Source: a bacterium
GTDB taxonomy: Bacteria; Patescibacteriota; Minisyncoccia; Phycocordibacterales; Zambryskibacteraceae
DNA length: 64,000 nucleotides
Assembly (NCBI GenBank): GCA_030649135.1
Contig: JAUSGI010000008.1
Span: 32,001-96,000, forward strand
Reading direction: 5' to 3'
Positions 11,830 through 60,465 of the stretch are shown here, piece by piece (positions within the stretch are counted from its first letter, which is position 1; every line of letters starts with the position of its first letter). The notes beneath the pieces were generated by a model, which saw only the letters and a list, made by a program, of their open reading frames with translations, was not told the DNA's origin and made no database searches. The translations under genes and the position numbers were made by a program.

Positions 11830-12975
11830 ATGCGTATTCTATTTACAGGTGGTGGCTCTGGAGGACATTTCTATCCGATAGTCTCTATTGCCGAAGAACT
11901 AAACTCTCTTGCGAAGGAGAAGAAACTTCTTGGGCTTGAACTTTTTTTTATGTCTCCTACTCCTTATAACCCGGGAGTACTTTTCGAGAACGGTATTATT
12001 TATAAGAAAAATAGCGCCGGCAAATTACGTCGCTCCGCCAATTGGTGGACCTTTCTGCCTAACTTCTTGGATTTATTTAAAACAGGGTGGGGGATTATCT
12101 CTTCGCTTTATATGGTCTACATGCTCTACCCCGATGTCATCTTCGGCAAAGGTGGCTATGCGAGTTTCCCGGTACTGGTGGCGGCTCGTCTCCTGCGTAT
12201 TCCCGTGGTTATCCATGAATCGGATACTGTTCCGGGCAGAGTAAATTTGTGGGCTGGTAAATTTGCCGCCATCGTCGCCGTTTCTTATAAGGAGGCGGCG
12301 AAATATTTCCCGGCTACTATAGTGGCTCATACCGGCCAACCGGTACGCAAAGATGTGGCTTTGCCCATTACTTCCGGCGCCCGTGAATTTCTAAAAATTG
12401 AAAACGATGTGCCGGTTATCCTGGTCTTGGGCGGCTCACAAGGAGCGCAAAAGATAAATGATATCGTCCTGGAGGGTCTCAAGGAATTGGTGGAGAAGTA
12501 TGCGATTATCCACCAGACCGGTAAAAATAATATCGCAGAAGTCAGAGCCACCGGGGAGGCCGTACTACTTAGCTCTATTCATAAAGACAGATACAAAGCG
12601 TTCGATTATCTTAATGTTTTGGCGCTTCGGATGGCAGCCGGAGTCGCCTCCGTGGTTATCTCGCGCGCGGGCTCCACAATCTTTGAGATTGCGGCGTGGG
12701 GGCTGCCTTCCATCATTATTCCTATCAGCGAAAAAGTTAGTCGAGACCAGCATTCCAACGCTTTTGCCTATGACCGCGCCGGCGCTTGCGAGGTGATAGA
12801 AGAAAATAATCTCACTACCAATATTCTTGCTTCGGAGATTGCGCGTCTGGTTTCCAATGAGTCCGAGCGGGCGAAGATGAAAGCGGCGGCCAAGGCATTC
12901 TACAAACCAGACGCCGCGCGTTTGGTGGCCGAAGAAATTCTTAAAATTGCTCTAGGGCATGAAATTGAAAAATAA
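11830..12975 (+). CDS. murG: UDP-N-acetylglucosamine--N-acetylmuramyl-(pentapeptide) pyrophosphoryl-undecaprenol N-acetylglucosamine transferase
   Basis: MRILFTGGGSGGHFYP; VIHESDTVPGRVN; GT-B architecture. Confidence 0.9.
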   Translation: MRILFTGGGSGGHFYPIVSIAEELNSLAKEKKLLGLELFFMSPTPYNPGVLFENGIIYKKNSAGKLRRSANWWTFLPNFLDLFKTGWGIISSLYMVYMLYPDVIFGKGGYASFPVLVAARLLRIPVVIHESDTVPGRVNLWAGKFAAIVAVSYKEAAKYFPATIVAHTGQPVRKDVALPITSGAREFLKIENDVPVILVLGGSQGAQKINDIVLEGLKELVEKYAIIHQTGKNNIAEVRATGEAVLLSSIHKDRYKAFDYLNVLALRMAAGVASVVISRAGSTIFEIAAWGLPSIIIPISEKVSRDQHSNAFAYDRAGACEVIEENNLTTNILASEIARLVSNESERAKMKAAAKAFYKPDAARLVAEEILKIALGHEIEK

Positions 12976-14161
12976 TAATGCAGCCACCGCTAGTAGCGGG
13001 GTCCCGCCAAAGGCGGTGATAGTACGAATAGCGCCTTCACCGACAGGGAATCTACATGTCGGTACCGCTCGTACCGCGCTATTTAATTTTCTCTTCGCCA
13101 AGCACAATGGCGGTAAGTTTCTCATTCGTATAGAAGATACTGATTTAGAAAGGTCAAAAAAAGAATATGAAAAAGATATTCTGGAAGGGCTCGAATGGCT
13201 AGGTATCACATCCGATGAGCCTGTGATGCGACAAAGTGATCGGCTGGAGATTTATGGGAAATATGCTAAGCAATTGATAGCCAAAAATCTTGCCTCCGAA
13301 GTGGATGGCGCCGTAATCTTGAAAAATGCTCAAACAGAAATCTCTTTTAACGACCTTATAAGAGGAGAAATCAAATTTGAAGATGTGCCTAGTGAACTGG
13401 TTATTCTAAAGTCAGACGGTACCCCAACTTATAACTTTGCCGTTGTTATTGATGATTACGAAATGGGCATTACTCATGTCATAAGAGGGGAGGACCATAT
13501 TTCTAATACACCAAGACAAATATTGGTGATAGAGGCGCTTGGGTTTAATCGTCCGCAGTATATACATATACCGATGATTCTTGCTCCTGACCGCTCTAAA
13601 TTATCAAAAAGACATGGGGCAACTTCACTTCTGGAATATCGAGAAAAAGGATATCTCCCTCAAGCGATGTTCAACTATCTGGCTCTTCTGGGCTGGAATC
13701 CCGGCACGGAACAGGAAATATTTAGCATGGCAGAACTGATTAAAGTTTTTGATATTGCCAAAATTCACAAAGGCGGGGCGATTTTCGATGAGAAGAAACT
13801 GGAATGGGTGAATAAGCAACATATAAACCTGCTTTCTCCGGAAGAGAAGATAAAAATTATTGCCCAAGAGTTTGATGTCAAAAAGATTCCGGAACTCGAT
13901 ACAGAAAAAATTTGCTGGAAAGATACTAGCTCGGAAGAAACGCTCGAACATCTCATTGAGTCGAAAAAAATTATTGAAAATGGTGATGACCTGATGCCTT
14001 ATGCCGAGAGGGAAGGGAAGGGTAATGTGTTGTGGCCAGTACGCTATGCTCTGTCGGGCGAGGAAAAGTCTCCGGACCCGTTTACCCTCATCGCTATTCT
14101 TGGCAAAGATGAGTCAGTCAAAAGGATAGAAAAAGCTATTGAATCTTTAAGTCAAAAATGA
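12959..14161 (+). CDS. gltX: Glutamyl-tRNA synthetase (short, ~400 aa)
   Basis: Class I HIGH-like PSPTGNLHVGTARTALFN and KMSKS-like KLSKRHG. Confidence 0.85.
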   Translation: MKLKNNNAATASSGVPPKAVIVRIAPSPTGNLHVGTARTALFNFLFAKHNGGKFLIRIEDTDLERSKKEYEKDILEGLEWLGITSDEPVMRQSDRLEIYGKYAKQLIAKNLASEVDGAVILKNAQTEISFNDLIRGEIKFEDVPSELVILKSDGTPTYNFAVVIDDYEMGITHVIRGEDHISNTPRQILVIEALGFNRPQYIHIPMILAPDRSKLSKRHGATSLLEYREKGYLPQAMFNYLALLGWNPGTEQEIFSMAELIKVFDIAKIHKGGAIFDEKKLEWVNKQHINLLSPEEKIKIIAQEFDVKKIPELDTEKICWKDTSSEETLEHLIESKKIIENGDDLMPYAEREGKGNVLWPVRYALSGEEKSPDPFTLIAILGKDESVKRIEKAIESLSQK

Positions 14162-15485: not shown

Positions 15486-15710
15486 ATGAAAAAAGATAAA
15501 GGCTTTATCAGTTGGTTAGTACTGATTATTATTGCCTTAGCGTTATTGAAATATTTCTTCGGTTGGTCTATTTTTGACGCGGCCAGTACGGAACAGGGGA
15601 GAGGTACCATTGCTTATATTAAAGATGTGTTGAGTTTCGTCTGGTATTATCTCAAGGTACCCGTGCTTTTCCTCTGGCGTATCATTTTTGACCTTTTGCC
15701 TTCTCGTTAA
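15486..15710 (+). CDS. Small membrane protein, hypothetical
   Basis: 74 aa with two hydrophobic helices. Followed by a second unlisted 40-aa hydrophobic ORF at 15717..15839 (MKVLMKMIRLLAFFLLAPIYVPAYLLMTFTFKWWSSLLDK). Confidence 0.35.
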   Translation: MKKDKGFISWLVLIIIALALLKYFFGWSIFDAASTEQGRGTIAYIKDVLSFVWYYLKVPVLFLWRIIFDLLPSR

Positions 15711-15928
15711 AACTATATGAAAGTTTTGATGAAAATGATTAGACTGCTTGCTTTCTTTCTTTTGGCGCCGATTTATGTGCCGGCATATCTCTTGATGACC
15801 TTCACCTTCAAATGGTGGTCATCCCTTTTGGATAAATAGAAATTGGTTGATTTGCTACCTTTTTTCGGCTAGTATAGCCGATGGAAACGGTATTATTTCG
15901 CGAGGCATATCAACCACAGGAGGGGAAC

Positions 15929-16681
15929 ATGGGTGGTACAAAGCTATTAAAGCCAGCGGAACGACTAGTTGTTGGGGTTGAATCTAAGCCCAACCCGAAG
16001 CGTGGTCAGAACCGCGATTGGGCGGTGGGTCAAGTCATCAATCTCGCCCACAAGCTCAAGGGCACCGAGGTCTACATCAAGGTCGAATCCACACTCGTAG
16101 CTTGCGGTTATGACCTTATCGCTGTGATTCACAGTTGTGGCCTTAAGGTCTTCGCAGACACCAAGCTCTCCGGTATGCCCGAGAAGCTCTCGGCCCACGG
16201 CGTACTCCTCAATGAGTACAAACCCGAGCTCGTTACGGTGATGTGTGCCACCGGGGTTACCGGGATGAAGGCGCTTAAGGCCGAACTGCCGAACACGGAA
16301 GTGCTCGGCGTACCGGTCCTTACAAGCTTCAAGGATACCGATGCGGATGAGGTATTCGACCGTTCGGTTGATGAGGCGGTCATACGATTTGCCCGGCTGG
16401 CAGATGACGCCGCCATCGATGGCCTCATCCTGGCACCAGGAGAAGTACAGATGATTCGGAAGAACTTCGGTGAAGTGATGACCTTAAACTGTCCTGGCGT
16501 TCGTTCGGACTGGATGGTCATCCGGGACGATGACCAGAATTATGGGCGTGTTATGACACCAGCGATGGCTATCAGGGCCGGCGCCGACCGTGTCATCGTG
16601 GAACGAGCGGTGACGCAGTCACTGCATCCGTATGAGGTGGTCATGCGCCTCATCGAGGAGATCGCCTCCATCAGACCGTGA
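15929..16681 (+). CDS. pyrF: Orotidine 5'-phosphate decarboxylase (GC-rich gene)
   Basis: Key OMP decarboxylase motifs: FADTKL, NCPGVR and DQ..V.TP..A...GAD..VV.R. SD AGGAGGGG sits 4 nt before the ATG at 15929. The track ORF begins earlier at 15881. Confidence 0.75.
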   Translation: MGGTKLLKPAERLVVGVESKPNPKRGQNRDWAVGQVINLAHKLKGTEVYIKVESTLVACGYDLIAVIHSCGLKVFADTKLSGMPEKLSAHGVLLNEYKPELVTVMCATGVTGMKALKAELPNTEVLGVPVLTSFKDTDADEVFDRSVDEAVIRFARLADDAAIDGLILAPGEVQMIRKNFGEVMTLNCPGVRSDWMVIRDDDQNYGRVMTPAMAIRAGADRVIVERAVTQSLHPYEVVMRLIEEIASIRP

Positions 16682-16756
16682 GTCTGCGGTCAAAATCGCT
16701 GCCTGGCCCAGGCTCCTAACTAGAGCTCGGGCCATTTTCTTTACATACAAATAAAA

Positions 16757-16786
16757 AGGGCCCACTGCCTTGCGACAGTGGGCCCG
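16757..16786. terminator. Bidirectional rho-independent terminator between convergent pyrF and pyrE
   Basis: gggcccactgccttgcgacagtgggccc perfect hairpin with A/T flanks. Confidence 0.6.
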
Positions 16787-16795
16787 AGGGCCATC

Positions 16796-17452
16796 TTACT
16801 TGGCAAACCGATAGGCTTGAATCTCTTCATAGATGTTGAGGGGAATGGTGTCCATGTCACGGTAGAGCCGGAGGAGCTCGGAAACACTTAGCGCAGCGTG
16901 AAGCAACAGGCCATGGGCGTTGAGGTTGTTCCGGCCCCCTTCTTCGCGGTCGATGAGCACGAAGACGTCTCGCACTTTAAGTCCGTAGAGTCCGTGAGCT
17001 CTGAGCACTTTGGCAGCAGTGAGTATGCTACCTGCCCTGTTGATGACTCCATCGAACAAGAGCACACTTGCTCCTGACGACCAAACACCGTCGATGTCAC
17101 CACCACCACCGTAGCTCTTCGGTGCTTTCGGAGTGATCATTGGGAATTCGGTACGATCCGAAAGCGAAGATACGACAGGTGTAATGGCAGTGGGGACATC
17201 GGCCAGAATCTCGCAGTCGAATGGTTCTATCATTTCCTCGAAGATGTCCACGGCCGTGGCTTTGGCTCCGGTCGGGTACGACCGCAGGACTGCTAGGTCG
17301 AGATAGTAAGGGGATAGCGGGGCGTCTGGTTCTGTTAGGTGCCTGTGAAGCTGGAATCCATTTCCACCGGGTGACTTACCCCTGTCCTTAAATGCCCCGC
17401 ACTGGTACAGCTCCTCCGCGAATTGTTTCTTGAGGTTGTCTAACCTGCTCAT
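16796..17452 (-). CDS. pyrE: Orotate phosphoribosyltransferase-like (type I PRTase), GC-rich
   Basis: PRPP-binding loop VLLFDGVINRAGSILTAAKVLRAHG. Size and the pyrF pairing fit. Confidence 0.65.
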   Translation of the reverse strand: MSRLDNLKKQFAEELYQCGAFKDRGKSPGGNGFQLHRHLTEPDAPLSPYYLDLAVLRSYPTGAKATAVDIFEEMIEPFDCEILADVPTAITPVVSSLSDRTEFPMITPKAPKSYGGGGDIDGVWSSGASVLLFDGVINRAGSILTAAKVLRAHGLYGLKVRDVFVLIDREEGGRNNLNAHGLLLHAALSVSELLRLYRDMDTIPLNIYEEIQAYRFAK

Positions 17453-17755
17453 GCTGCCTCCCCTTCAGGCTATTTAATTCCCGCTGTCTGGCGTTACCTT
17501 AATACAAATATCAATAAAATCAAGTTTGGAAACTTCCCTATTATGGTCAAAAAATAGGGGAGGGGTGGGGGCGTAATTTTCAATAACATCCAATTTTGTT
17601 AAATGTTTAGTAGATAGTAGGGAAGATTGAGTGATAATTAAATTATCCAGTTATCAGAATTCTTGGTCAGTAAGAGCCTAGCCTAAGGTCGCAAAGGTAT
17701 ATTGTGCGACACACATCTAAAGCCAGAAAGTCCTCTCCCCTCCTCATGTCGCTAA

Positions 17756-18367
17756 TTATTTTTGAGCGATGACTTGTATCCAATTTGTCCTGCCGGCAGG
17801 TGAAATATTTTCGTATACCATCCTACCAAAACCCGAATCCATCAAATATTTTTTAATTTCATCAATTGTGTAATAACTGAAAAATCGCTCGTAAGGATAC
17901 CCATAGTCATTTTCTGCCACTATTTCCTCCTCTGCCCTATCGGACCGTCTCTCCTTAACTGCGATGTAAAAATAGCCACCTGATTTAAGTTTGTCTCCGA
18001 TTTTTTCAATTACTTTCTGAGCCTCGTGTTTAGGCACATGAAGTAAAACTGCCTGCATGAAAACAGCGTCGAAAACACCATCCAGCTTATCTATATCTTT
18101 AAGGTCTAGAGTTTGGAACTTTCCTTCCGGAACTTCTCGCTTTGCAATCTCTATCATCTTTTCGGAGAAATCAATACCTGTGACGTCGAATCCTTTTTGT
18201 ATCAAATATTTTGACTCTATGCCGCTGCCACAACCGACATCGAGCACCGAATCACCCGGGTTCAAAAGCGATATGAATTTATCCGTTCCCTCAACCCACC
18301 AGTCATCTGGTTTGTGGTCTTGGTGCCAATCCTCGGCAATTCTGTTGTAAGTCTCCTTTAAATCCAT
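17756..18367 (-). CDS. Class I SAM-dependent methyltransferase
   Basis: Motif I VLDVGCGSGIES. Low GC like the host backbone. Confidence 0.8.
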   Translation of the reverse strand: MDLKETYNRIAEDWHQDHKPDDWWVEGTDKFISLLNPGDSVLDVGCGSGIESKYLIQKGFDVTGIDFSEKMIEIAKREVPEGKFQTLDLKDIDKLDGVFDAVFMQAVLLHVPKHEAQKVIEKIGDKLKSGGYFYIAVKERRSDRAEEEIVAENDYGYPYERFFSYYTIDEIKKYLMDSGFGRMVYENISPAGRTNWIQVIAQK

Positions 18368-18456
18368 ATAAACCCAATTCTACAACAGTTTGACTTCTCT
18401 TATTCCCTAGAGCAGACTTGACGCCAGACACAACCAACTTCCTTGCGGAGGGCTAT

Positions 18457-19281
18457 ATGCCTAAGAAGGGCTCACTCCTGGCTGAAGGTAAGACCAAGAA
18501 GATCTGGCGCGACGCACACACGACCTCTGGAGTTCTCATCGAGAGTAAGGATGAAGTAACTGCGGGCGATGGTGTCCGGCGGAAAGAATTCGAGGGCAAA
18601 GGCGCCTACTCGACCGCCACCACCGCAAAGTGCTTCGAGCTTTTGACGGCTCACGGCATCCCCAACCACTTTCTCAGGGGCTTCGACGCAACAACCTTCT
18701 GTGCACGGAAGCTCAGGATGATCAAGAAGGAGGTAGTTGTTCGACGTGTGGCAACCGGCTCCTACCTCAACCGCCGGCCTGATGTCGAGGAGGGCACGCT
18801 ATTCAAACCAGTGGTCGTCGAGTTCTTCGCCAAGATCGATGAAGAGCACGACCCGCTGGTGATCCACGACTTTGTCAGCGAGCGCATTCTCCTCTTCCAT
18901 GCGAGGAAACCTCTGGCAGAGGGCTATCTACGTGAGGTAGCCATGGCAGATGGACGGGCCACGGAATGGTTCGCTCTGCGCGAGATGGTCTCGCTCGCTG
19001 AACAGACCTTCGCTGCTCTCGAGGCGGCGTGGGCTACACAGGACGTCATGCTCGTCGATCTCAAGATCGAGTGTGGTAGGGACGATACTGCTAGTGGTAG
19101 AATCGTCGTCGGCGACGTTATCACCAACGACGAGTGGCGTATCTGGCCTGGTGGCGACAAGTCTCGCCAGCTGGACAAGCAGGTTTTCCGGGAGACGCCG
19201 GAGGCTACCCACGAAGCGATGAAGGCTCTCAAGGCCAACTACGCTAAGGTGGCGGAGATGGTGGAGAAGTTCCCGGTCTGA
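18457..19281 (+). CDS. purC: Phosphoribosylaminoimidazole-succinocarboxamide (SAICAR) synthase, GC-rich
   Basis: LLAEGKTKKIW near the N-terminus; LVDLKIECG and DEWRIWP. SD GGAGGG lies before the ATG at 18457. Confidence 0.75.
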   Translation: MPKKGSLLAEGKTKKIWRDAHTTSGVLIESKDEVTAGDGVRRKEFEGKGAYSTATTAKCFELLTAHGIPNHFLRGFDATTFCARKLRMIKKEVVVRRVATGSYLNRRPDVEEGTLFKPVVVEFFAKIDEEHDPLVIHDFVSERILLFHARKPLAEGYLREVAMADGRATEWFALREMVSLAEQTFAALEAAWATQDVMLVDLKIECGRDDTASGRIVVGDVITNDEWRIWPGGDKSRQLDKQVFRETPEATHEAMKALKANYAKVAEMVEKFPV

Positions 19282-19287
19282 CAGCAA

Positions 19288-19325
19288 CGCGCGGGCTCCC
19301 CTTCTGGGAGCCCGCGCTTTTCGTT
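19288..19325 (+). terminator. Rho-independent terminator after purC
   Basis: gcgcgggctccccttctgggagcccgcgc then ttttcgtttg. A second hairpin, aaacccgcccctaaccggcgcgggttt, follows at ~19340-19372. Confidence 0.55.
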
Positions 19326-19379
19326 TGTTAAATATTAAACAACAAACCCGCCCCTAACCGGCGCGGGTTTGTCTAAGAG

Positions 19380-21573: not shown

Positions 21574-22794
21574 CTATTGTGTTAGAATTTCAACAGCTTT
21601 TTGTAGTTGTGGGTCACGGCCCGCTTCCCTATCGGCTGTACTATATTTAACGAGAAATTGTGGCTCGATACCGTCTTGGGAAATAGAAAGGCCATTGGGG
21701 GTTAGCCAGCGGGCTATGGTAATCTTCAGAGAAGTTTCCGAAGTGATGTCCACTAATTCTTGGACGGACCCCTTACCGAAAGTCTTGTCCCCTACCAGAA
21801 TTGCTCTGCCGTGTTCCGCAAGAGCTCCAGCCAATATCTCGGATGCCGAAGCGGAGCCTCTGTCTACCAAAATCACAAATTTCAGCGCCTCGTTGAAGAT
21901 GTCGTAGCCCTTACTTCGATAAACTTTCTCTTCTCTTGATGGGCCGAAATCTTCTCTGACTACGACCTTGCTCGGAGGCAGAAACCAACTGGCCATGTCT
22001 ATCGCGGCCTCAAGGTACCCACCGGGATTGCCCCGTAGGTCAAGGAGAAGCTTATCGCTGTCAGAGAGGATAAATTCTCGCAGGGCAGCCCGGAAGAAGT
22101 TCGGAGATTGAGCCGAGAAGCTATAAAGTTCTATGACGAAAACACCCCCGGGCAATTCTCGGGTACTGAGGGTAGGAATATTTATTACTTCCCGAACCAC
22201 CTTAATATCAAGCGGCTCTTTGGCGCCGTTTCTGATAATAGTGAGCGCCACACTAGTGCCCTTTGGTCCGCGGATAATCTGGACGGCCTTCTCGGTAGAG
22301 AGGTTGGCTGTATCTTTGTTGTTGATTTTGACGATTCTGTCACCGGCCATGATACCGGCTCTCGAAGCTGGTGAGTCCTTGAGTGGTGCAATCACGATGA
22401 TGGCGCCATCTTTGGCGACTACTTCCATACCCACCCCTTCAAAGTTCCCTCGGATGTCGGATTCAAAAAGTGCAGATTCTACGGGGGGAAAAAATACTGT
22501 ATAAGGGTCGCCGAGTGATACCGTCAATCCTTGGATGGCTCCCCAAACTCTTTCCTGGTTGTCCACCTTCTGGGCGGTAGTACTGGCAGATACATACTTT
22601 TCATCGATGAGATTCCAAGCTTTCCAAAAGGGTGCGAAGTCCACATCAACTGGCTTGCCTTCGGTTTGGTTTTCTATTCCGGCCACTGTCGTGGACGGAC
22701 TGTTTTCTCCAGAGTTGAAGCCAAGGTTAAAAGAGCCGACAGCGATAATCACTCCGAGGACCAAGAGTGCGGCATGTCTCTTTAAAAATTCCAT
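21574..22794 (-). CDS. ctpA: C-terminal processing (tail-specific) peptidase, S41 family, with PDZ domain
   Basis: LDLRGNPGGYLEAAIDMASWFL and GSASASEILAGALAEHGRAILVG. TM anchor MEFLKRHAALLVLGVIIAVG. The start is probably M at 22794. Confidence 0.85.
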   Translation of the reverse strand: MEFLKRHAALLVLGVIIAVGSFNLGFNSGENSPSTTVAGIENQTEGKPVDVDFAPFWKAWNLIDEKYVSASTTAQKVDNQERVWGAIQGLTVSLGDPYTVFFPPVESALFESDIRGNFEGVGMEVVAKDGAIIVIAPLKDSPASRAGIMAGDRIVKINNKDTANLSTEKAVQIIRGPKGTSVALTIIRNGAKEPLDIKVVREVINIPTLSTRELPGGVFVIELYSFSAQSPNFFRAALREFILSDSDKLLLDLRGNPGGYLEAAIDMASWFLPPSKVVVREDFGPSREEKVYRSKGYDIFNEALKFVILVDRGSASASEILAGALAEHGRAILVGDKTFGKGSVQELVDITSETSLKITIARWLTPNGLSISQDGIEPQFLVKYSTADREAGRDPQLQKAVEILTQ

Positions 22795-22822
22795 TTTAGG
22801 TATTCTATCATATAATACAGAC

Positions 22823-24004
22823 GTGGCTATAAAACTACACAATACTCTGACAGGTTCGCTTGAGGCATTTGAGCCTCTCAAATCCGGTAAGGTCGGGATG
22901 TTTGTCTGTGGACCGACTGTCTACGATTTCTCACACTTAGGCCATGCGAAGACATACATTCAGTTTGACTTCCTCGCCCGTTATCTGGGTTACATGGGCT
23001 ATGAAGTGACGTATGTGCAAAATATTACTGATATAGACGACAAGATAATAGAGCGTGCTCGTGAAAAAAATGTCGAACCAAACATGTTGGCAGAGGAGTA
23101 TGAGAGATATTATCTCGAAGATATGGCGGCGCTCAATAATATTAGTGTCGATAAATACGCAAGGGCCCATGATTATATTCCGCAAATTGTCGACCAAGTG
23201 AAACGCCTATTGGCGAAGGATATGGCGTATCGCATTTCCGATGGATATTATTTTGATATCAAACAGTTCGAAGATTACGGAAGGTTATCGGGACGTTTAT
23301 CGTTGGAGCCCGGCGATGCGGTATCTAGAATTGATGAAAACCAGGAGAAAAGAAACCCCGGCGATTTTTGTCTCTGGAAGTTTCGAAAGGAAGATGACCC
23401 ATATTGGTCAACAGAACTTGGTGAAGGTCGCCCGGGCTGGCATATAGAAGATACGGCTATTACCGAAAGCGAACTTGGTCCCCAATACGATATCCACGGC
23501 GGCTCAATGGATTTAATTTTTCCGCACCATGAAGCGGAGATCGCTCAAATGGAATCGGCGTCGGGTCTGAAACCCATGGTTAAGTACTGGTTACATACAG
23601 GATTTCTGAATGTTAAAACCGAAAAAATGTCCAAAAGTTTGGGTAACTTCATTACCATTAGAGCGGTAACAGAGAAAGGTGTTTCCCCGTTGGCACTAAG
23701 ATATCTCTTTCTGCTATCTCACTACCGCACTCCGACCAACTTCAGCTTCGAAGCACTTGAAGCGGCGGAAAATGCCTATAACAGATTAAAGAAATTTGTA
23801 GCCGGCTTGTTGGGCACAGGAGTTGTAGACGAAAGTTACAAACAAAAATTTACGGAAAAGTTGGAAAACGATCTCAATACACCGCAGGCCTTGGCTGTAG
23901 TTTGGGGTCTAATTAAAGATAAAGACATCTCACCGGAGGATAAACTGGCCACTATTTTGGATTTCGATAAAGTACTTGGGCTGGGACTTGAATATAAAAA
24001 ATGA
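22823..24004 (+). CDS. cysS: Cysteinyl-tRNA synthetase
   Basis: MFVCGPTVYDFSHLGHAKTY (HIGH) and KMSKSLGN. The conserved N-terminus KLHNTLTGS.EAFEP places the start near an in-frame GTG at 22823. The track ORF extends further 5' and would overlap divergent ctpA. Confidence 0.8.
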   Translation: MAIKLHNTLTGSLEAFEPLKSGKVGMFVCGPTVYDFSHLGHAKTYIQFDFLARYLGYMGYEVTYVQNITDIDDKIIERAREKNVEPNMLAEEYERYYLEDMAALNNISVDKYARAHDYIPQIVDQVKRLLAKDMAYRISDGYYFDIKQFEDYGRLSGRLSLEPGDAVSRIDENQEKRNPGDFCLWKFRKEDDPYWSTELGEGRPGWHIEDTAITESELGPQYDIHGGSMDLIFPHHEAEIAQMESASGLKPMVKYWLHTGFLNVKTEKMSKSLGNFITIRAVTEKGVSPLALRYLFLLSHYRTPTNFSFEALEAAENAYNRLKKFVAGLLGTGVVDESYKQKFTEKLENDLNTPQALAVVWGLIKDKDISPEDKLATILDFDKVLGLGLEYKK

Positions 24005-24065: not shown

Positions 24066-24242
24066 CTACTTCTCGGGTGTGCTGAAGATAACCGCTCGAG
24101 CGATGCCGTTGCTATACGACGTGTCGGTGACCGAGTGAATTTCCACATTGGTGCCAAGATCTTCCTCAACCATCCTGTCGAGAATGGTGAGTGCTCGCGA
24201 CTCCCCATCGAATCGCCCCGCCCAGTATGTTTTTACTCGCAT
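24066..24242 (-). CDS. Small hypothetical protein (58 aa), GC-rich
   Basis: MRVKTYWAGRFDGESRALTILDRMVEEDLGTNVEIHSVTDTSYSNGIARAVIFSTPEK. No family recognised. Divergent from dnaB. Confidence 0.3.
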   Translation of the reverse strand: MRVKTYWAGRFDGESRALTILDRMVEEDLGTNVEIHSVTDTSYSNGIARAVIFSTPEK

Positions 24243-24396
24243 GGTCTGTCCCCCTAGGAGAAGTGCGTTGCATCTGGTAGAGTCATACGCCCAAAGCAGG
24301 TTTGTGTCAAGAATGCGGGTTCTCCACAACTTACACACCAACTTTTACACCTTTGTCAGCTTGCCCCGCCATGGCGGGGGTTGCTACCATTGTGGT

Positions 24397-25815
24397 ATGC
24401 AGGTACTAACTCTCGACGACAAAACTGGTTTGCGGATTCCGCCACACAGCATGGAGGCGGAGATGGCGTTACTTGGTTCTATCATGCTTCGTCCTGACGC
24501 TATTTATGACGTGCTCGATATTGTTACGCCAGCTTCGTTTTATTTCGAGAAACACAAAACCATTTTTGAGACTATGCTTGAATTGTTCGGCAAGCACAAT
24601 CCGATAGACATTCTTTCTCTTTCTTCGAGACTCAAAGAAAAGGATTTGCTCGAACGCCTTGGTGGGACTACATACTTAACCGAACTTTCTTCTGCGGTGC
24701 CATCTTCGGCAAACGCTAAACATTACGCCGAAATCGTGATGAAAAAGTTTATGATGCGCCAGCTCATAGAGGCTTCCGAGCATCTTTCCCATCTCGGCTT
24801 CGATGAATCCGGCGACTTGGAGGAAATCCTCGACCAAGCGGAGAAAAAAGTTTTTGACATTACCGAACGCTTCGCCGGTTCTGCCCGTTTCAGAGATCTC
24901 GTGCCACTCTTGGCCGAAGCATTTGAACGCTTCGAAAAACTCTCTTCGGCGGAGCACGAACTACGTGGCGTGCCGACGGGTTTCAAGTCGCTTGATGACA
25001 TCTTGGGTGGTTTCCAGAACTCCGACCTTATCATTATCGCCGCCCGTCCCTCTGTCGGTAAGACGGCCTTGGCTCTTGATATTGCCAGGCGTACGGCCAG
25101 TCTCCACCAAACCCCTGTAGGCATTTTTTCTCTTGAGATGAGCTCTGACCAGCTTGTTGACCGTATTGTGGCGGCTCAATCACGCACAGACTCTTCTGTC
25201 ATTAGGAAAGGTATACGTACTCAAACCGGCACTTGGCGTGATGATGTTTTCAAAAATATTCGTGACGCGCTCGATGAACTCTCGCGCACGCCTATCTACA
25301 TTGATGACCAACCGGGTAACACCATTATGAAAATGCGTTCGGCGGCTCGTAAGCTGAAAATTGAAAAAGGGCTCAAACTTCTGGTCGTTGATTATCTCCA
25401 ACTCATGGCACCTTCCACAGCGCGCATGAATGACTCAATGGTCCAGCAAGTCACGGAGATTTCCCGCTCGCTGAAACATCTTGCTCGTGAACTCAATATC
25501 CCGGTAGTAGCACTTTCTCAGCTTTCCCGCGCAGTGGAAACTCGCGGCGGCAAGCCCAAGCTCTCCGACCTGCGGGATTCCGGGTCCATTGAACAGGATG
25601 CTGACTTGGTGATGTTCATTCATTCCAATGAGGATGATATTCGCGACGAGAATGGCAAGATGAAAGAGGTTCAAAGGAAGGAACTCATCATCGCCAAGCA
25701 TAGAAATGGCCCTCTAGGTGTTGCCACACTCGACTATCACACCCGCTTCAATACTTTCGTTGAAATAGATTACTCAAATTACGGTAAAGCCGAAGAAGAA
25801 TTTAATAATTTATAA
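24397..25815 (+). CDS. dnaB: Replicative DNA helicase
   Basis: N-domain LRIPPHSMEAEMALLGSIML. Walker A ARPSVGKTALALDIA. RecA-like core. ATG at 24397 (MQVLTLDD); the track ORF starts upstream at 24148. Confidence 0.9.
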   Translation: MQVLTLDDKTGLRIPPHSMEAEMALLGSIMLRPDAIYDVLDIVTPASFYFEKHKTIFETMLELFGKHNPIDILSLSSRLKEKDLLERLGGTTYLTELSSAVPSSANAKHYAEIVMKKFMMRQLIEASEHLSHLGFDESGDLEEILDQAEKKVFDITERFAGSARFRDLVPLLAEAFERFEKLSSAEHELRGVPTGFKSLDDILGGFQNSDLIIIAARPSVGKTALALDIARRTASLHQTPVGIFSLEMSSDQLVDRIVAAQSRTDSSVIRKGIRTQTGTWRDDVFKNIRDALDELSRTPIYIDDQPGNTIMKMRSAARKLKIEKGLKLLVVDYLQLMAPSTARMNDSMVQQVTEISRSLKHLARELNIPVVALSQLSRAVETRGGKPKLSDLRDSGSIEQDADLVMFIHSNEDDIRDENGKMKEVQRKELIIAKHRNGPLGVATLDYHTRFNTFVEIDYSNYGKAEEEFNNL

Positions 25816-26500: not shown

Positions 26501-26944
26501 ATGACAGAGAGATTCTCTCCCCACTTTCACCCCTGTGGTGGTCACCACGTCCACCTTGTCACGGGGCCAGGTTTTGGTGCCTCGGCGCCCTTCGCTTCTA
26601 TCCCGGCAGGAGAGTGCGTCATCGAAGGGGCCACCGACCGGAACGACCCTCAAGATGTTGAAGATGCAGCTCGACTCAAGAAGGAGCTTGGTGGTCTTAA
26701 GCTCCGCGCCGAAAGAGGACGAGCCAGAGGACTCTACTCTCATGCCAAGTGGCCCGACCAACTCGTTCCATACTGGACGGACTTCATCAACAACAAGCTG
26801 GCACCTAGGGAGTCCGCCGTTTTTGGTACATTTGCCTGCGATTTCGTGGGCAGGTGCGTGCGGGAAACGGATGGTGGTGACCCGCAGGGAGTTCTGCGGG
26901 TCAAAAAGGTCAGTGAGGTGCTAAGGCCAAAGGTTTCGGTCTAG
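26501..26944 (+). CDS. Hypothetical protein in GC-rich islet
   Basis: SD GAGGAG before the ATG. A + strand terminator follows. No recognisable domain. Confidence 0.4.
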   Translation: MTERFSPHFHPCGGHHVHLVTGPGFGASAPFASIPAGECVIEGATDRNDPQDVEDAARLKKELGGLKLRAERGRARGLYSHAKWPDQLVPYWTDFINNKLAPRESAVFGTFACDFVGRCVRETDGGDPQGVLRVKKVSEVLRPKVSV

Positions 26945-29755: not shown

Positions 29756-31417
29756 CTAGCCCCACTCGATAGTCGAGAATGGCTTGTCGGAAGTACGATA
29801 AACCATGGCGCCGATTCCTGGTACTTCGTTTCCGGCGCGACGAACGAAACGCTTGTGGAACTCAAACGGAAGCTCCATTGCCTGCGCAGTGAACCCGTTC
29901 ACGCTAGAGACTGCCCAGTAGGCGATTACTGGGCCACTGCCAGCATCATCGCCCTTGGTGGTAGTGTGCACTGACTGGGTGACAACGGCACCAGCCTGCC
30001 ACACCAATGGATAGAGTCCGGTGCTCCGGAGCTCTTCGATATAAATGCCGTCCAACTGGCTCTCCATGGCAAGTTTCTCACGAGTCACTTCCCCTTCGAT
30101 ACGTACAGCAAGCCCTGGACCAGGAAATGGATGACGGGTAAGAAGTTCTTCCGGGACACCAATTTGTCGCCCGATATCCCTTCCTCCGTCCTTGACGCAG
30201 TCGGCGAGTGGTGTCAGTTCCTGAAAACGGAAGTTAAGGTTTGTGTTGTGATGGATCTTTATCGTAGCTTTCCGCGCCCCGCTTGCGTATCCTCCTCCGC
30301 TCTCGGAGATGTCAGTGTTGAGTGTTCCTTGTGCGATGAGTACCTGGTACTTACCATTCTCGCTCAAGCGCTCGGCTTCTTCCTCGAGCACGGGTTTGTA
30401 AACACCACGCATTACTAAGCGCTTGGCGCGCATAGCAGTCGGTGCCTTGTTGATACCCAGCAAACGTTGCCACCATGACCGCCTGGGTGAGAGTGCCCCA
30501 AGAAACCTATCAGTGGCATCGACGATTATGAGGGTGATCCACGGTTGGTTCTCAAAGTAACGACGTACGAAAGCCTTATCGTCAGGCCGATCGAGACCAC
30601 CAAGGTAGACACCATAGAATTGCTCGCGCCCGCTTGTAGCCTCCTTGATCAGGTATGCAGAAGTGGCAGAGTCTGACCCACCGGAGAGGGCCAGTACAAC
30701 CCTCTTGTCACCGATTTGTTCACGTAGCTCTGCGATCTTGCGCTTCGCGATGTCTCCCGCCGGAAAGCGATCTCTCGCTTTGCAGATCAGGAAACAGAAG
30801 TTCTCCAATATTCGTGGACCATCTGTGGTTTCAGAAACTTCCGGGTGAAACTGCACTCCATGGAGATGTCTCCACGAAGCAGCTGCCAAAGCATTTTCGG
30901 TAAAGCCGTAGACCGTGTCGAAGCTTACTGGTCCGTTCCCTTGGATCTGGTCTCCATGACTTTGGAGCACTAGCATTTCCTTCGAACATCCGCGAAATAG
31001 TTTCTCGAAGGTACGGAGCTTTAACTCATGGGTGCTGAACTCTTTACGAGTGGCAGCAGAAACCTGGATACCGATGTGCTTGGCCCACATCTGGAAACCC
31101 AAACAGATACCGAGCACCGATATGCCGAGATCGAAAATTCTCGAGTCGAAGGGTGGTGGTTCCATATGAACGGAAGCTGGTCCACCCGACAAGACGATGC
31201 CGGTCGGTGAAAGTATGGTGACATCTTCAGCCGTGACTGATGCCGGGTCAGCGACCAGACAGTAGACGCCGAGTTTGGCGAGCGCCTGGAAGATGAGGTG
31301 ATCGAACTGACTGCCCATGGCAAAGAGTAGAAAGACTTCTCTAGTGTGGCGAATCAGCATCTCTTCGTGGACAGCATCCAGTGATTCTGAAGTTGCCCTC
31401 CGGAAAGTGTCGAGCAT
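29756..31417 (-). CDS. guaA: GMP synthase (glutamine-hydrolysing), GC-rich
   Basis: GATase LGICLGFQ. ATP-PPase SGGSDSATSAYL. C-terminal ...TIEWG. Confidence 0.9.
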   Translation of the reverse strand: MLDTFRRATSESLDAVHEEMLIRHTREVFLLFAMGSQFDHLIFQALAKLGVYCLVADPASVTAEDVTILSPTGIVLSGGPASVHMEPPPFDSRIFDLGISVLGICLGFQMWAKHIGIQVSAATRKEFSTHELKLRTFEKLFRGCSKEMLVLQSHGDQIQGNGPVSFDTVYGFTENALAAASWRHLHGVQFHPEVSETTDGPRILENFCFLICKARDRFPAGDIAKRKIAELREQIGDKRVVLALSGGSDSATSAYLIKEATSGREQFYGVYLGGLDRPDDKAFVRRYFENQPWITLIIVDATDRFLGALSPRRSWWQRLLGINKAPTAMRAKRLVMRGVYKPVLEEEAERLSENGKYQVLIAQGTLNTDISESGGGYASGARKATIKIHHNTNLNFRFQELTPLADCVKDGGRDIGRQIGVPEELLTRHPFPGPGLAVRIEGEVTREKLAMESQLDGIYIEELRSTGLYPLVWQAGAVVTQSVHTTTKGDDAGSGPVIAYWAVSSVNGFTAQAMELPFEFHKRFVRRAGNEVPGIGAMVYRTSDKPFSTIEWG

Positions 31418-33941: not shown

Positions 33942-33944
33942 GTA

Positions 33945-44434: not shown

Positions 44435-44910
44435 TGCTGGTCAAAAGCAATTGCCCGTCTAGAACAGACGTGAGCGGAAATCCACATGAAGTCCCTAAAT
44501 GGCAAGGGTATAAGTGTGGGCGAGACCGCAGACTCGGCATCCCTCTTGCCGTCTTCCAATGAGGCACGCATCTACTGTGGGCTGAGGAAGAGAAAAGAGA
44601 CAAGGCGATTGGTTCCCAATCGTCTTCCGTCCAAAGTTTGTTTATGAAAATAGATTTTGGACGGAGGAGGTATCCCAATATATCCATGACCTAACTAGGC
44701 CATTATTTTAGAGCGTATTTAATACCATCAATCATGATTGACTTATCTATTTACATATGCTATCATTAACAGCAGATTAGATCGCAAGGCTTCCGTTCCC
44801 CGCCAGTTAAAGGGGATTACAAACCGGCATCGACTCACAAGATGAGTCATGCCAATGAAGTTCCTTCAAGAGTCTCAGTCACACAAGTGACTAGACGCGG
44901 GAGAAGTAAA

Positions 44911-60442: not shown

Positions 60443-60465
60443 TATTTATAGTGAGTTTATCGAAC

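What the first reader, a model, noticed from the sequence alone, without database searches (positions are those of the whole stretch)
15881..19330. GC-rich (~55-60%) islets carrying nucleotide-biosynthesis genes (pyrF, pyrE-like, purC here; guaA at 29756-31417) in a ~42% GC host
Composition shifts abruptly at the gene borders. The SAM-methyltransferase between pyrE and purC keeps host-like low GC. CPR bacteria typically lack de novo nucleotide synthesis. Isolated terminal-step enzymes (orotate to UMP, SAICAR synthase, XMP to GMP) with foreign composition look like horizontally acquired salvage or partial-pathway patches. pyrF and pyrE are convergent and share a bidirectional terminator.
Basis: partly seen in the sequence, partly recalled or inferred. 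Interest (0 to 1): 0.5.

Follow-up and report, generated by a model that had tools for sequence, protein, structure and literature searches.

The report
GC-rich nucleotide-synthesis genes, Parcubacteria-wide pattern
The GC-rich patches are real and hold divergent pyrF, pyrE-like, purC and guaA genes, but these belong to the organism's own bacterial group (Parcubacteria), where the same genes stand out as GC-rich in almost every genome and, in related genomes, pyrE-pyrF moves between genomes as a small cassette, so this is exchange inside the group rather than import from outside.

Summary
The window is 46.7% GC, not 42%. pyrF (55.6%), pyrE-like (54.3%), purC (57.8%) and guaA (53.5%) are the four GC-richest ORFs of at least 200 aa, with sharp borders. 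The methyltransferase between them is 41%.

The nearest homologues of all four genes are Parcubacteria (Zambryski-, Yanofsky-, Sungbacteria). They are not foreign to the CPR. Sister genomes share the flanking backbone and carry GC-rich copies in the same variable slot, but with different gene content. One sister has an integrase there, and one has a different pyrE lineage.

In 49 metagenome loci carrying this pyrF clade, pyrF is GC-richer than its flanks in 48 (mean +10 points). pyrC, pyrD and pyrE show the same offset.

Many of those loci share only a roughly 1.5-kb promoter-leader-pyrE-pyrF-terminator unit at 79-90% nucleotide identity, inside otherwise unrelated contexts. This indicates lateral spread within Parcubacteria.

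The window's copies are old and rearranged. They have lost otherwise conserved catalytic or PRPP-motif residues, which suggests decay or changed function.

A side finding is a covarying, unannotated RNA leader upstream of pyrE and pyrD in relatives. It is absent from the window.

The parts
15929..16681 (+). pyrF-like gene (OMP decarboxylase family, 250 aa). The mechanical ORF starts at 15881.
   Evidence: PF00215 scores 64 bits. NCBIfam PRK00230 scores 122 bits, below its cutoff of 193. GGAGGGG precedes the ATG at 15929, and the independent gene call is also 250 aa. GC is 55.6%. DxKxxD reads D-T-K-L-S-G, AADF reads GVES and VGRP reads VERA.
16704..16745 (+). pyrF terminator: imperfect hairpin followed by AUUUUCUUU
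   Evidence: Fold energy is -23.9 kcal/mol, z -3.9. The consensus scanner did not call it.
16748..16785 (-). pyrE-like terminator: 12-bp GC-rich hairpin followed by UUUUUAUUU
   Evidence: There is no T-run on the + strand side, so it works in one direction only.
16796..17452 (-). pyrE-like phosphoribosyltransferase (218 aa), convergent with pyrF
   Evidence: No Pfam hit. NCBIfam PyrE models score far below cutoff. The best solved structures are human and Leishmania OPRT, at 68 and 59 bits. It belongs to a small family of about 20 clusters. The PRPP motif reads LLFDGVINRAGS where the family has LLFDDLVTEAHS. GC is 54.3%.
17756..18367 (-). class I SAM methyltransferase (203 aa), low GC, absent from the sister genomes
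   Evidence: Methyltransf_23/25/11 hits. GC is 41.0%. No counterpart exists in the L003, L088 or L089 slot.
18457..19281 (+). purC (SAICAR synthase, 274 aa). The mechanical ORF starts at TTG 18418.
   Evidence: PF01259 scores 169 bits. TIGR00081 scores 107 bits against a cutoff of 190. It is 100% identical to the 274-aa P0001. It keeps all 49 invariant columns of the CPR-type family. GC is 57.8% and GC3 is .71.
19289..19327 (+). purC intrinsic terminator
   Evidence: 12-bp stem with 11 GC pairs, followed by TTTTCGTTTG.
29756..31417 (-). guaA (glutamine-hydrolysing GMP synthase, 553 aa), an insertion/deletion relative to sister L003
   Evidence: NF000848 scores 366 bits against a cutoff of 400. 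The catalytic Cys/His/Glu and the SGGxDS P-loop align with E. coli GuaA. L003 has only 134 bp between the MGMT-like gene and RNR at this place. GC is 53.5%.
15486..15710 (+). 74-aa membrane ORF marking the left, conserved edge of the variable slot
   Evidence: 73% identical to the 80-aa ORF at the same place in L003. A 74-aa ORF sits at the same place next to the M23 gene in L088, but its similarity to the window's ORF was not computed.

Best explanation
The islets are long-resident, Parcubacteria-lineage nucleotide-biosynthesis genes. They comprise a rearranged remnant of a pyrE-pyrF unit (orotate + PRPP -> OMP -> UMP), plus purC (CAIR -> SAICAR) and guaA (XMP -> GMP).

Their GC-richness is not a scar of import from outside the CPR. 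It is a property this gene set shows in nearly every Parcubacteria genome that has it.

The most likely cause (inferred) is lateral circulation within Parcubacteria as small self-contained units. For pyrE-pyrF the unit is shown: promoter, structured leader, two genes, terminator, about 1.5-1.7 kb. Its composition (about 53-60% GC in the window's sub-clade) is more uniform than that of its hosts (31-60%) and adjusts to the host only partly.

In the window's family the genes entered a variable slot of a conserved backbone before the sister genomes split. This is supported by synteny and by synonymous divergence like the backbone's.

Since then several changes have occurred (shown unless marked otherwise).
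- The leader was lost or is absent.
- pyrF and pyrE became convergent.
- One sister carries a different pyrE lineage.
- A low-GC methyltransferase was inserted.
- Some sisters keep only pyrF or only pyrE-like.
- The window's PyrF and PyrE-like have lost otherwise conserved catalytic or PRPP-binding residues.

The orotate-to-UMP pair is therefore probably decaying or has changed function (inferred). PurC and GuaA look catalytically intact.
For: Lineage.
- The best PurC homologues are Zambryskibacteria (72%), Sungbacteria (64%) and other Parcubacteria, Saccharibacteria and Peregrinibacteria. An NJ tree nests the window inside a Parcubacteria clade, apart from Chloroflexota/DPANN and far from E. 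coli.
- The PyrF clade is about 30 clusters. Every member that carries a taxon name is Parcubacteria (four of about 30). Scores then drop sharply to canonical PyrF.
- The best named GuaA relative is from Sungbacteria.

Shared anomaly in sister genomes.
- L003: pyrF 59.3%, pyrE 55.2%, purC 55.9% against a 47.8% background.
- L088: pyrE-like 59.1% against 44.1%. L089: pyrF 56.9% against 47.8%.

Variable slot.
- Gene content differs among the window, L003, L088 (with an integrase), L089 and L094, while backbone DnaB is 93-96% identical among the four compared.

Generality.
- pyrF is GC-richer than its flanks in 48/49 loci, mean +10.4 points. It is the GC-richest ORF in 35/49 loci.
- The result holds for 17 representatives clustered at 70% identity.
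- Offsets against the locus median ORF are +8.0 for pyrE, +7.9 for pyrD and +7.6 for pyrC-like. The other 419 ORFs average -0.8 +/- 4.4.
- All three codon positions and the amino-acid composition are shifted.

Mobility.
- L096 (flank GC .51) and L099 (.41) share only 1,488 nt at 88% identity.
- Dozens of pairs at 79-90% identity show no other homology in up to 16 kb of flank.
- The homology ends just upstream of the promoter and just after the terminator.
- The contexts differ: defence genes in L096, housekeeping genes in L099.

Partial adjustment to the host.
- Within the window's sub-clade, the slope of pyrF GC on host GC is 0.51.
- The nearest out-of-family PurC and GuaA sit in genomes of about 56% GC, where their composition matches the background.

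Erosion of conserved residues.

Literature: most transfers detected in Patescibacteria are within the phylum, and some involve nucleotide metabolism (PMC12455944).
Against: - No close mobile partner was found for the window's own genes. The best nucleotide match for pyrF is 72%, to the syntenic sister L094. Lateral movement is demonstrated in relatives, not in this copy.
- No recent purC cassette was seen among the 33 purC loci compared, most of them GTDB species representatives.
- A 'home' genome for pyrF, where its GC would be ordinary, was hardly sampled. Only L140 comes close, at +3 points. A pure source-sink picture therefore lacks an identified source.
- Window and L003 have diverged close to synonymous saturation, yet both keep a +8 to +11 point offset. 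Simple decay towards host composition would require a very GC-rich ancestor.
- In the window the excess lies mainly at two-fold codon sites. Across all 49 loci, pyrF GC follows host GC with a slope of .84 and a nearly constant offset. These observations fit a gene-specific bias equally well.
- The taxonomy of the metagenome loci is inferred from named homologues, not determined.
Confidence: 0.55

Rival explanations
1. The genes are inherited vertically, and a gene-specific fixation bias keeps them about 10 GC points above whatever genome they sit in. The bias could be selection for G/C-ending codons or GC-rich mRNA, or GC-biased gene conversion at a recombination-prone locus. Under this reading the islets say nothing about transfer.
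For: - The offset is present in 48/49 loci. Its slope against host GC is .84 overall and 1.15 for 17 representatives, and the lines do not cross.
- The same offset is seen for the different proteins PyrC, PyrD, PyrE, PyrF and PurC, and for a PurN-like ORF.
- Sister genomes keep the offset after near-saturating synonymous divergence, and per-gene GC3 correlates between the two genomes (r=.85).
- In the window the excess is at two-fold sites, for example AAG .76 against .39 and ATC .72 against .29, while four-fold sites resemble the host.
- pyr genes lie 9 points above the general GC12-GC3 trend.
Against: - Translational selection should not shift GC1, GC2 and amino-acid composition, but all three are shifted.
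- Ribosomal proteins, EF-Ts and glycolytic genes in the window are not shifted.
- The genes are patchy and dispensable, and they evolve faster than the backbone (55-72% against 80-95% identity). That fits poorly with unusually strong selection.
- Near-identical cassettes in unrelated contexts show that transfer does occur.
- Within the closest sub-clade, gene GC tracks host GC only weakly, with a slope of .51.
Confidence: 0.3
2. The islets are recently acquired patches from non-CPR, higher-GC donors, and they give a nucleotide-auxotrophic CPR cell terminal-step salvage enzymes.
For: - The composition is atypical, with sharp borders.
- The genes are isolated terminal-step enzymes.
- guaA is present here but absent at the same place in sister L003.
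Against: - All nearest homologues are CPR, and canonical bacterial versions are far more distant.
- pyrF and purC are syntenic and equally GC-rich in sister genomes, with synonymous divergence like the backbone's.
- The window has no integrase, tRNA or flanking repeat at the slot.
- PyrF and PyrE-like carry substitutions at conserved catalytic positions, which is not expected of a recently selected acquisition.
Confidence: 0.04
3. The islets are an assembly or binning artefact, in which GC-rich fragments of another organism were joined into a lower-GC contig.
For: None beyond the composition itself.
Against: - An independent assembly (Logan contig L001) is identical across M23-pyrF-pyrE-methyltransferase-purC-RNase T.
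- Three further assemblies of a sister genome show the same arrangement.
- The junctions fall in ordinary intergenic spacers that carry terminators.
Confidence: 0.01

Closest known systems
Horizontally transferred genes and genomic islands in Patescibacteria/CPR (mSystems 2025, PMC12455944)
   Same: - Accessory metabolic genes, including nucleotide-metabolism genes, are exchanged mostly between Patescibacteria.
- The composition is atypical.
- The genes lie in variable regions.
- An integrase is present in one sister genome.
   Different: - The unit here is one or two genes, not a multi-gene island.
- The window has no mobility gene, tRNA or repeat at the slot.
- The same gene set is compositionally offset in nearly all hosts, which is not what a one-off island predicts.
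Canonical bacterial pyrE/pyrF (OPRTase and OMP decarboxylase), the last two steps of UMP synthesis
   Same: - The folds and families match (PF00215; OPRT-like PRTase).
- Relatives keep the usual pyrE-pyrF or pyrD-pyrC-pyrE-pyrF operon order.
   Different: - The sequences are very divergent, below all NCBIfam equivalog cutoffs.
- In the window the two genes are convergent.
- PyrF has Gly for the last Asp of DxKxxD and Glu for the first-strand Asp.
- PyrE-like has D-G instead of D-D in the PRPP motif.
Amelioration of transferred genes (Lawrence and Ochman model; own knowledge)
   Same: - The gene's GC lies between a presumed higher-GC source and the host.
- Copies in lower-GC hosts are themselves lower in GC.
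   Different: - The offset persists across divergences that are close to synonymous saturation.
- In the window it is concentrated at two-fold sites.
- The simple model alone does not fit comfortably.
CPR/Chloroflexota/DPANN-type PurC, including PurC-PurE fusions in Saccharibacteria
   Same: The window's PurC keeps all invariant residues of this type and nests within its CPR branch.
   Different: - It stands alone, with no purE or purB nearby (Sungbacteria have purB-purC).
- It is GC-enriched by 11 points, compared with a median of about +2 in other CPR loci.
Known pyrimidine-operon RNA regulators (PyrR-binding attenuators, UTP-sensitive leaders; own knowledge)
   Same: The leader found in relatives sits directly upstream of pyr genes, in two copies per locus when pyrD is present.
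   Different: - It has no Rfam match.
- Its architecture is a hairpin plus an H-type pseudoknot of about 65 nt.
- No pyrR gene was identified in the ORFs annotated in these loci.
- It is absent from the window.

Membership tests
Horizontally acquired genomic island (from a foreign donor) | Composition atypical for the host, with sharp borders | tested here: met
   GC is 54-58% against 46.7%, with steps at the gene borders.
Horizontally acquired genomic island (from a foreign donor) | Mobility gene, tRNA target or flanking direct repeats | tested here: not met
   There is no tRNA within 15 kb. Only short chance-level repeats were found. The window has no integrase. Sister L088 does have an integrase in the slot.
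Horizontally acquired genomic island (from a foreign donor) | Presence/absence polymorphism among close relatives | tested here: met
   The slot content differs in the window, L003, L088, L089 and L094, and guaA is an indel.
Horizontally acquired genomic island (from a foreign donor) | Nearest homologues in a different lineage from the host | tested here: not met
   The nearest homologues are Parcubacteria/CPR for all four genes.
Horizontally acquired genomic island (from a foreign donor) | Anomaly specific to this host (orthologues elsewhere match their own genomes) | tested here: not met
   pyrF exceeds its flanks in 48/49 loci, and the sister genomes share the anomaly.
Orotidine-5'-phosphate decarboxylase (PyrF) | Family profile match | tested here: inconclusive
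   Pfam PF00215 is passed (64 bits against 27). All NCBIfam equivalog cutoffs are missed (122 against 193; 79 against 92).
Orotidine-5'-phosphate decarboxylase (PyrF) | Catalytic Lys / Asp-x-Lys-x-x-Asp charged network, plus first-strand Asp and the Gly-Arg phosphate grip | tested here: not met
   The Lys and the D-x-K are present. The last Asp is Gly (ADTKLSG), the first-strand Asp is Glu (GVES) and GR is ER. The clade consensus keeps all of these. The same Asp->Gly change recurs in L089, L094 and P0149.
Orotate phosphoribosyltransferase (PyrE) | Family profile match | tested here: inconclusive
   There is no PF00156 hit. NCBIfam PyrE models score 42-64 bits against cutoffs of 107-656. The best solved-structure hits are all OPRTases, at 6e-18.
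Orotate phosphoribosyltransferase (PyrE) | PRPP-binding motif with two acidic residues followed by a T/S-rich loop | tested here: not met
   The window has LLFDGVINRAGS. Its own sub-family has LLFDDLVTEAHS, in which D135 and T138 are at least 90% conserved.
SAICAR synthase (PurC) | Family profile match and conserved residues of its sub-type | tested here: met
   PF01259 scores 169 bits. All 49 invariant columns of a 25-member CPR-type alignment are present. TIGR00081 is below its cutoff (107 against 190), which reflects the divergent sub-type.
Glutamine-hydrolysing GMP synthase (GuaA) | GATase Cys-His-Glu triad, ATP-pyrophosphatase SGGxDS loop, C-terminal dimerisation domain | tested here: met
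   GICLGFQ, GVQFHPEV and LSGGSDSA align with E. coli GuaA over 524 residues. PF00117 and PF00958 are both hit. NF000848 scores 366 against a cutoff of 400.
Intrinsic bidirectional terminator shared by convergent genes | One hairpin flanked by an A-tract on one side and a T-tract on the other | tested here: not met
   There are two separate hairpins, each with a U-run on its own strand only.

The most novel reading that the evidence does not exclude
In Parcubacteria, pyrimidine (and perhaps purine) biosynthesis is an accessory, laterally circulating trait. It is carried by compact, self-regulated cassettes (promoter, a previously undescribed hairpin-plus-pseudoknot leader RNA, pyrE-pyrF, terminator) that keep a characteristic GC-rich composition. 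As a result they appear as GC islets in almost every host. The window shows a late stage of this process: an old, rearranged, leaderless copy with eroding active sites.
Probability: 0.45. Interest if true: 0.65.

Novelty: new variant of a known kind. Interest (0 to 1): 0.5.

Why it matters
CPR bacteria are thought to depend on hosts for nucleotides. Which of them keep, lose or regain biosynthetic steps shapes how we read their lifestyle.

This work shows three things.
- A GC islet in one genome is weak evidence for foreign origin. The same gene set is offset by about 10 GC points in 48 of 49 related loci.
- Within Parcubacteria the pyrE-pyrF pair does move as a tiny, self-contained unit.
- Annotated 'pyrF' and 'pyrE' genes in this family can lack catalytic residues, so pathway reconstructions from annotation alone may overstate capacity.

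The consistent offset of one functional gene class is also an unusually clean case for separating transfer history from GC-biased fixation in bacteria. The leader RNA is a candidate new regulator of pyrimidine genes.

Tried and rejected
- **Polarising GC->AT against AT->GC synonymous changes by three-taxon parsimony**, to test for ongoing decay of GC. The direction flipped with the GC of the outgroup, so the test is inconclusive because sites are near saturation.
- **Comparing backbone distances between the window and Sungbacteria-like genomes**, to test whether PurC or GuaA are 'too similar'. The release factors turned out to be RF1/RF2 paralogues. GuaA at 59% against MraW at 45% and PBP at 46% is uninformative without rate calibration.
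- **att-like direct repeats around the slot and around guaA.** Only short chance-level matches were found.
- **A remnant of guaA in sister L003.** None was found.
- **Recent single-gene purC cassettes among 33 purC loci, most of them GTDB species representatives.** None were found.
- **The leader RNA in the window.** It is absent even with filters off.
- **High expression or translational selection as the cause.** Rejected as the sole cause, because ribosomal, EF-Ts and glycolytic genes are not shifted, and because amino-acid composition is shifted too.
- **Protein class (soluble enzymes) as the cause.** Rejected, because GAPDH, aldolase, transketolase, tRNA synthetases and RNR sit at the genome mean.
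- **Rfam.** The whole window gave only two tRNAs.

Full report
**1. What is in the window**

The 64-kb window is 46.7% GC. It encodes a typical small-genome CPR-like set:
- FtsW, MurG, GltX, an M23 peptidase, CysS, DnaB, RecR, L21, L27, L9, RmuC and a class II ribonucleotide reductase;
- PBP, MraW, GyrB, S2, EF-Ts, RF1, pentose-phosphate and lower-glycolysis enzymes;
- large LTD, beta-helix and ice-binding-like surface proteins.

Exact or closest protein matches are labelled 'bacterium', Zambryskibacteria, Yanofskybacteria or Parcubacteria group.

The finding covers four genes.

| Gene | Coordinates | Size | GC |
|---|---|---|---|
| pyrF-like | 15929-16681 (+) | 250 aa | 55.6% |
| pyrE-like phosphoribosyltransferase | 16796-17452 (-) | 218 aa | 54.3% |
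| SAM methyltransferase | 17756-18367 (-) | 203 aa | 41.0% |
| purC | 18457-19281 (+) | 274 aa | 57.8% |

guaA lies at 29756-31417 (-) and is 53.5% GC.

**2. The observation**

A 150-nt profile shows steps at the gene borders. GC is about 40% before 15900, 52-62% to 17400, 35-47% to 18400 and 55-61% to 19350.

The four nucleotide genes are the four GC-richest ORFs of at least 200 aa in the window.

About three points of the excess follow from amino-acid composition. The rest is codon choice: GC3 observed minus expected is +.12 to +.21 for pyrF, pyrE-like and purC, and +.07 for guaA.

In the window the codon shift lies mainly at two-fold codons, Ile and Leu. Examples are AAG .76 against .39, AAC .81 against .39 and ATC .72 against .29. 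Four-fold sites are close to the host.

- The host is 46.7% GC, not 42%.
- guaA's contrast is modest.
- pyrF and pyrE-like each have their own terminator, back to back, rather than one bidirectional terminator.

Independent assemblies reproduce the arrangement.

**3. Whose genes are they?**

All four proteins score well below NCBI's curated equivalog cutoffs. They are therefore divergent versions, not typical bacterial genes recently imported.

- **PurC.** The best hits are Zambryskibacteria (72%) and Sungbacteria (64%), then Parcubacteria, Saccharibacteria, Woesebacteria and Peregrinibacteria at 45-55%. Chloroflexota and DPANN archaea follow at 43-47%. An NJ tree places the window with L003 inside a Parcubacteria clade. 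That clade is sister to a Sungbacteria group, lies within a CPR-wide branch and is separate from the Chloroflexota/DPANN branch.
- **PyrF.** It belongs to a clade of about 30 clusters. The four members that carry a taxon name are all Parcubacteria. Below 156 bits there is a drop to canonical PyrF at no more than 67 bits.
- **PyrE-like.** It belongs to an even smaller family with no Pfam hit. The best solved structures are eukaryotic OPRT domains.
- **GuaA.** About 15 clusters match at 44-58% identity, and the best named one is Sungbacteria. There is then a drop to canonical GuaA at no more than 40%.

**4. Sister genomes**

A Zambryski/Yanofsky-type relative (L002-L004) is collinear with the window from FtsW to RNR. 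It has pyrF, a convergent pyrE and purC at the same place, and all three are GC-rich there too: 59.3, 55.2 and 55.9% against 47.8%.

Fourfold-site identity between the window and L003 is .37-.44 for pyrF and purC, against .28-.30 expected by chance. Backbone genes show the same range of .30-.48. Per-gene GC3 correlates between the two genomes (r=.85).

Three more sisters share the backbone. Among the four genomes compared, DnaB is 93-96% identical in a star-like pattern. L094 was recognised as a sister by gene order only. The slot content differs in each.

| Genome | Slot content | Source |
|---|---|---|
| L088 | CYTH, a phage-type integrase, and only pyrE-like (60% to the window; 59.1% GC against 44.1%) | |
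| L089 | only pyrF (56.9% against 47.8%), plus a Mur ligase | |
| L094 | only pyrF | |

Further points:
- L003's pyrE is only 31% identical to the window's, so it is a different lineage at the same position.
- The low-GC methyltransferase is unique to the window.
- guaA is an indel. L003 has 134 bp between the MGMT-like gene and RNR.

The nucleotide genes therefore occupy a variable slot in a conserved backbone. pyrF and purC were there before the sisters split.

**5. Is the GC excess special to this family?**

It is not. More distant members of the pyrF clade sit in other contexts, as pyrE-pyrF or pyrD-pyrC-like-pyrE-pyrF operons. They are again the GC-richest genes around (52-59% against 43-45%).

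A metagenome scan with a clade alignment returned 80 loci. Of these, 49 have at least 3 kb of flank.
- pyrF exceeds its flanks in 48, with a mean of +10.4 points.
- It is the GC-richest ORF in 35 and among the top two in 42.
- Its GC follows host GC (31-60%) with slope .84 and r=.71.
- With 17 representatives clustered at 70% identity, the mean offset is +7.4 points and 16/17 are positive.

Offsets against the median ORF of each locus:

| Gene class | Offset (points) |
|---|---|
| pyrF | +9.2 |
| pyrE | +8.0 |
| pyrD | +7.9 |
| pyrC-like | +7.6 |
| purC | +6.8 |
| 419 other ORFs | -0.8 +/- 4.4 |

One of the few other outliers looks like PurN, judging by its sequence motifs alone.

All three codon positions and the amino-acid composition are shifted (GC1 +9.8, GC2 +5.0, GC3 +12.6). 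GC3 lies 9 points above what the general GC12-GC3 trend predicts.

For purC across other CPR the effect is weaker. It is positive in 19 of 26 loci, with a median of about +2 points. In Chloroflexota it is absent.

**6. Evidence for movement**

Within the scan, pyrF proteins that are 80-98% identical occur in loci sharing nothing else.

At the DNA level, L096 (a 336-kb contig, 50.8% GC) and L099 (a 96-kb contig, 40.6% GC) share one 1,488-nt block at 88.4% identity and no other homology over 16 kb of flank. Dozens of pairs behave the same way at 79-90% identity.

The block starts about 750-890 nt upstream of pyrF and ends 0-90 nt after its stop. Alignments show a -35/-10 promoter, a conserved leader, pyrE, pyrF and a terminator hairpin, after which similarity stops.

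Contexts differ. L096 has PilM, an Abi-like protein, GmrSD and an MvaI/BcnI nuclease. L099 has FtsA, HisRS, pyrD, pyrC-like and ribosomal protein S1.

This is good evidence that a self-contained pyrE-pyrF unit spreads laterally among Parcubacteria of different base composition.

Within the window's sub-clade, pyrF GC is .554 +/- .033 while hosts span .37-.50 (slope .51). This is the pattern expected for a circulating unit that adjusts only partly to each host.

The nearest out-of-family PurC and GuaA lie in genomes of about 56% GC, where they match the background.

Published work reports that most detected transfers in Patescibacteria are within the phylum and include nucleotide-metabolism genes (PMC12455944). 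I found no paper describing the GC offset.

**7. State of the window's genes**

PurC keeps all 49 invariant columns of its sub-type. GuaA keeps the amidotransferase triad and the SGGxDS loop.

PyrF does not keep its conserved sites. The clade consensus has AADF...K...FADLKLxDI...VGRP, while the window has GVES...K...FADTKLSGM...VERA.
- The last Asp of the D-x-K-x-x-D network is Gly.
- The first-strand Asp is Glu.
- The Gly of the Gly-Arg phosphate grip is Glu.

From established enzymology of OMP decarboxylase (own knowledge), each member of the Lys-Asp-Lys-Asp network contributes several orders of magnitude to catalysis.

The Asp->Gly change recurs in L089, L094 and P0149. In L089 and L094 the slot holds no pyrE partner, and P0149's context was not examined.

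PyrE-like has D-G-V-I-N where its own family has D-D-L-V-T.

Taken together with the sisters that retain only one of the two genes, the missing leader and the convergent arrangement, the orotate-to-UMP pair in this family looks like a unit in decay or diverted to another role. This step is inferred, not shown.

**8. Weighing the explanations**

Recent import from outside the CPR is excluded by sections 3-5. An assembly artefact is excluded by section 2. Two explanations remain.

(a) Lateral circulation within Parcubacteria of GC-rich units that adjust slowly to each host. In its favour:
- transfer is demonstrated in relatives;
- the slot is variable and one sister has an integrase there;
- a different pyrE lineage sits at the same position in L003;
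- guaA is an indel;
- all codon positions are shifted;
- tracking of host GC is weak within the sub-clade;
- the nearest PurC and GuaA relatives match their own roughly 56% GC genomes.

(b) A gene-specific fixation bias. In its favour:
- the offset is nearly constant across hosts;
- a high-GC home for pyrF was hardly sampled;
- the offset persists after near-saturating divergence;
- the window shows a two-fold-site pattern.

I favour (a) at about 0.55 and (b) at about 0.3. The two are not exclusive. Attempts to decide between them by polarising substitutions failed, because the result depended on the outgroup's GC.

**9. Side finding**

The cassette leader is a candidate new regulatory RNA. 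After the promoter (TTTACA, 17 nt, TAATGT) come four elements:
- TTAGAG;
- a 5-bp hairpin;
- ACA;
- an H-type pseudoknot (GGC...GCGC...GCC...GCGU).

These are followed by TGAACCTTGAAAGGA and the start codon.

A covariance model finds 26 copies in 21 loci, all in the gene's orientation. Most copies lie just upstream of pyrE. In four loci there is a second copy just upstream of pyrD.

On those 26 sequences:
- 94.9% of cells pair;
- 11 of 12 pairs show compensatory changes;
- 33 compensatory cells are seen, against 5.8 +/- 2.4 in shuffles;
- slid controls pair at 23-47%.

Two of the three helices were fitted by the model. The pseudoknot helix was not. Rfam has no match. The window lacks the leader.

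**10. Verdict**

The compositional observation is real. The 'foreign patch' reading is only partly right. These are Parcubacteria-lineage genes whose GC-richness is a group-wide feature, linked at least for pyrE-pyrF to lateral circulation of small cassettes. The window holds an old, rearranged and partly eroded copy.

The finding is of moderate interest in itself. The general pattern and the leader RNA deserve follow-up.

Noticed in passing
L099:7162-7240, L098:4700-4779, L092:5076-5152 and 7208-7286, and 22 further sites; none in the window: A conserved leader of about 65 nt (hairpin plus H-type pseudoknot, then the Shine-Dalgarno sequence) lies directly upstream of pyrE, and in four loci also of pyrD, in Parcubacteria metagenome loci. 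Covariation is strong: 11 of 12 pairs have compensatory changes and 94.9% of cells pair. It has no Rfam match. It is a candidate new pyrimidine-gene riboswitch or attenuator.
   Followed up: partly
L096:7245-8730 vs L099:7245-8730; also L098, L101, L103, L104, L105, L109, L110, L118, L121, L133: A pyrE-pyrF unit of about 1.5-1.7 kb, with its own promoter and terminator, is shared at 79-90% nucleotide identity between loci whose flanks (up to 16 kb) show no other homology. Flank GC in these loci ranges from .39 to .51.
   Followed up: yes
window 26501-26944 (+): A 147-aa ORF with no family hit and 57.7% GC sits in a second variable slot after recR. It is 48% identical to an ORF at the same place in L089. 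L003 has an AAA_33 kinase-like gene (55% GC) there, and L088 has nothing.
   Followed up: partly
window 44842-45258 (+), 48590-48946 (-), 51323-51601 (-), 51577-51834 (-): Small ORFs of 85-138 aa, several of them Cys-rich, with 53-59% GC and GC3 of .68-.69. They have no Pfam or NCBIfam match. They are as GC-rich as the nucleotide genes, and this is unexplained.
   Followed up: no
window 22535-24004 (cysS), 27412-28461 (rmuC), 12959-14161 (gltX) compared with L003, L088, L089: Where DnaB is 93-96% identical among the sister genomes, some neighbours differ sharply by pair. RmuC is 72% between window and L003 but 30% between window and L088. CysS is 70% against 48-52%. GltX is 61% against 88% (L003-L088). 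This suggests allele replacement inside the 'conserved' backbone.
   Followed up: partly
L118:5741-6412 (-): An ORF that looks like PurN (GAR formyltransferase) by its motifs lies 11 GC points above its locus median. It would be another nucleotide-biosynthesis gene showing the offset. No family search was run on it.
   Followed up: no
PurC homologues; L085:8649-10867: The window's PurC type is shared by the CPR, Chloroflexota and DPANN archaea (43-47% identity). Some Saccharibacteria carry PurC-PurE fusions. Sungbacteria have a Lyase_1 gene (presumably purB) directly upstream of purC.
   Followed up: partly
window 59456-61957 (-): Transketolase is split into N- and C-terminal genes, with an HD-domain (YfbR-like 5'-deoxynucleotidase) gene between them. 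It lies next to rpe, rpiB and GAPDH.
   Followed up: no
window 31626-34487 (+): A B12-dependent class II ribonucleotide reductase with an ATP-cone is followed directly by a Cob_adeno_trans-family (PF01923) cobalamin adenosyltransferase, adjacent to guaA. These are nucleotide-related genes that are not GC-shifted (48.0% and 52.3%).
   Followed up: no
window 24148-25815 (+) and 12959-14161 (+): The mechanical DnaB ORF (555 aa, TTG start) is 83 aa longer than the 472-aa sister proteins, so the real start is probably near 24397. GltX is 400 aa here against 295 aa as called in L003 and L088.
   Followed up: no
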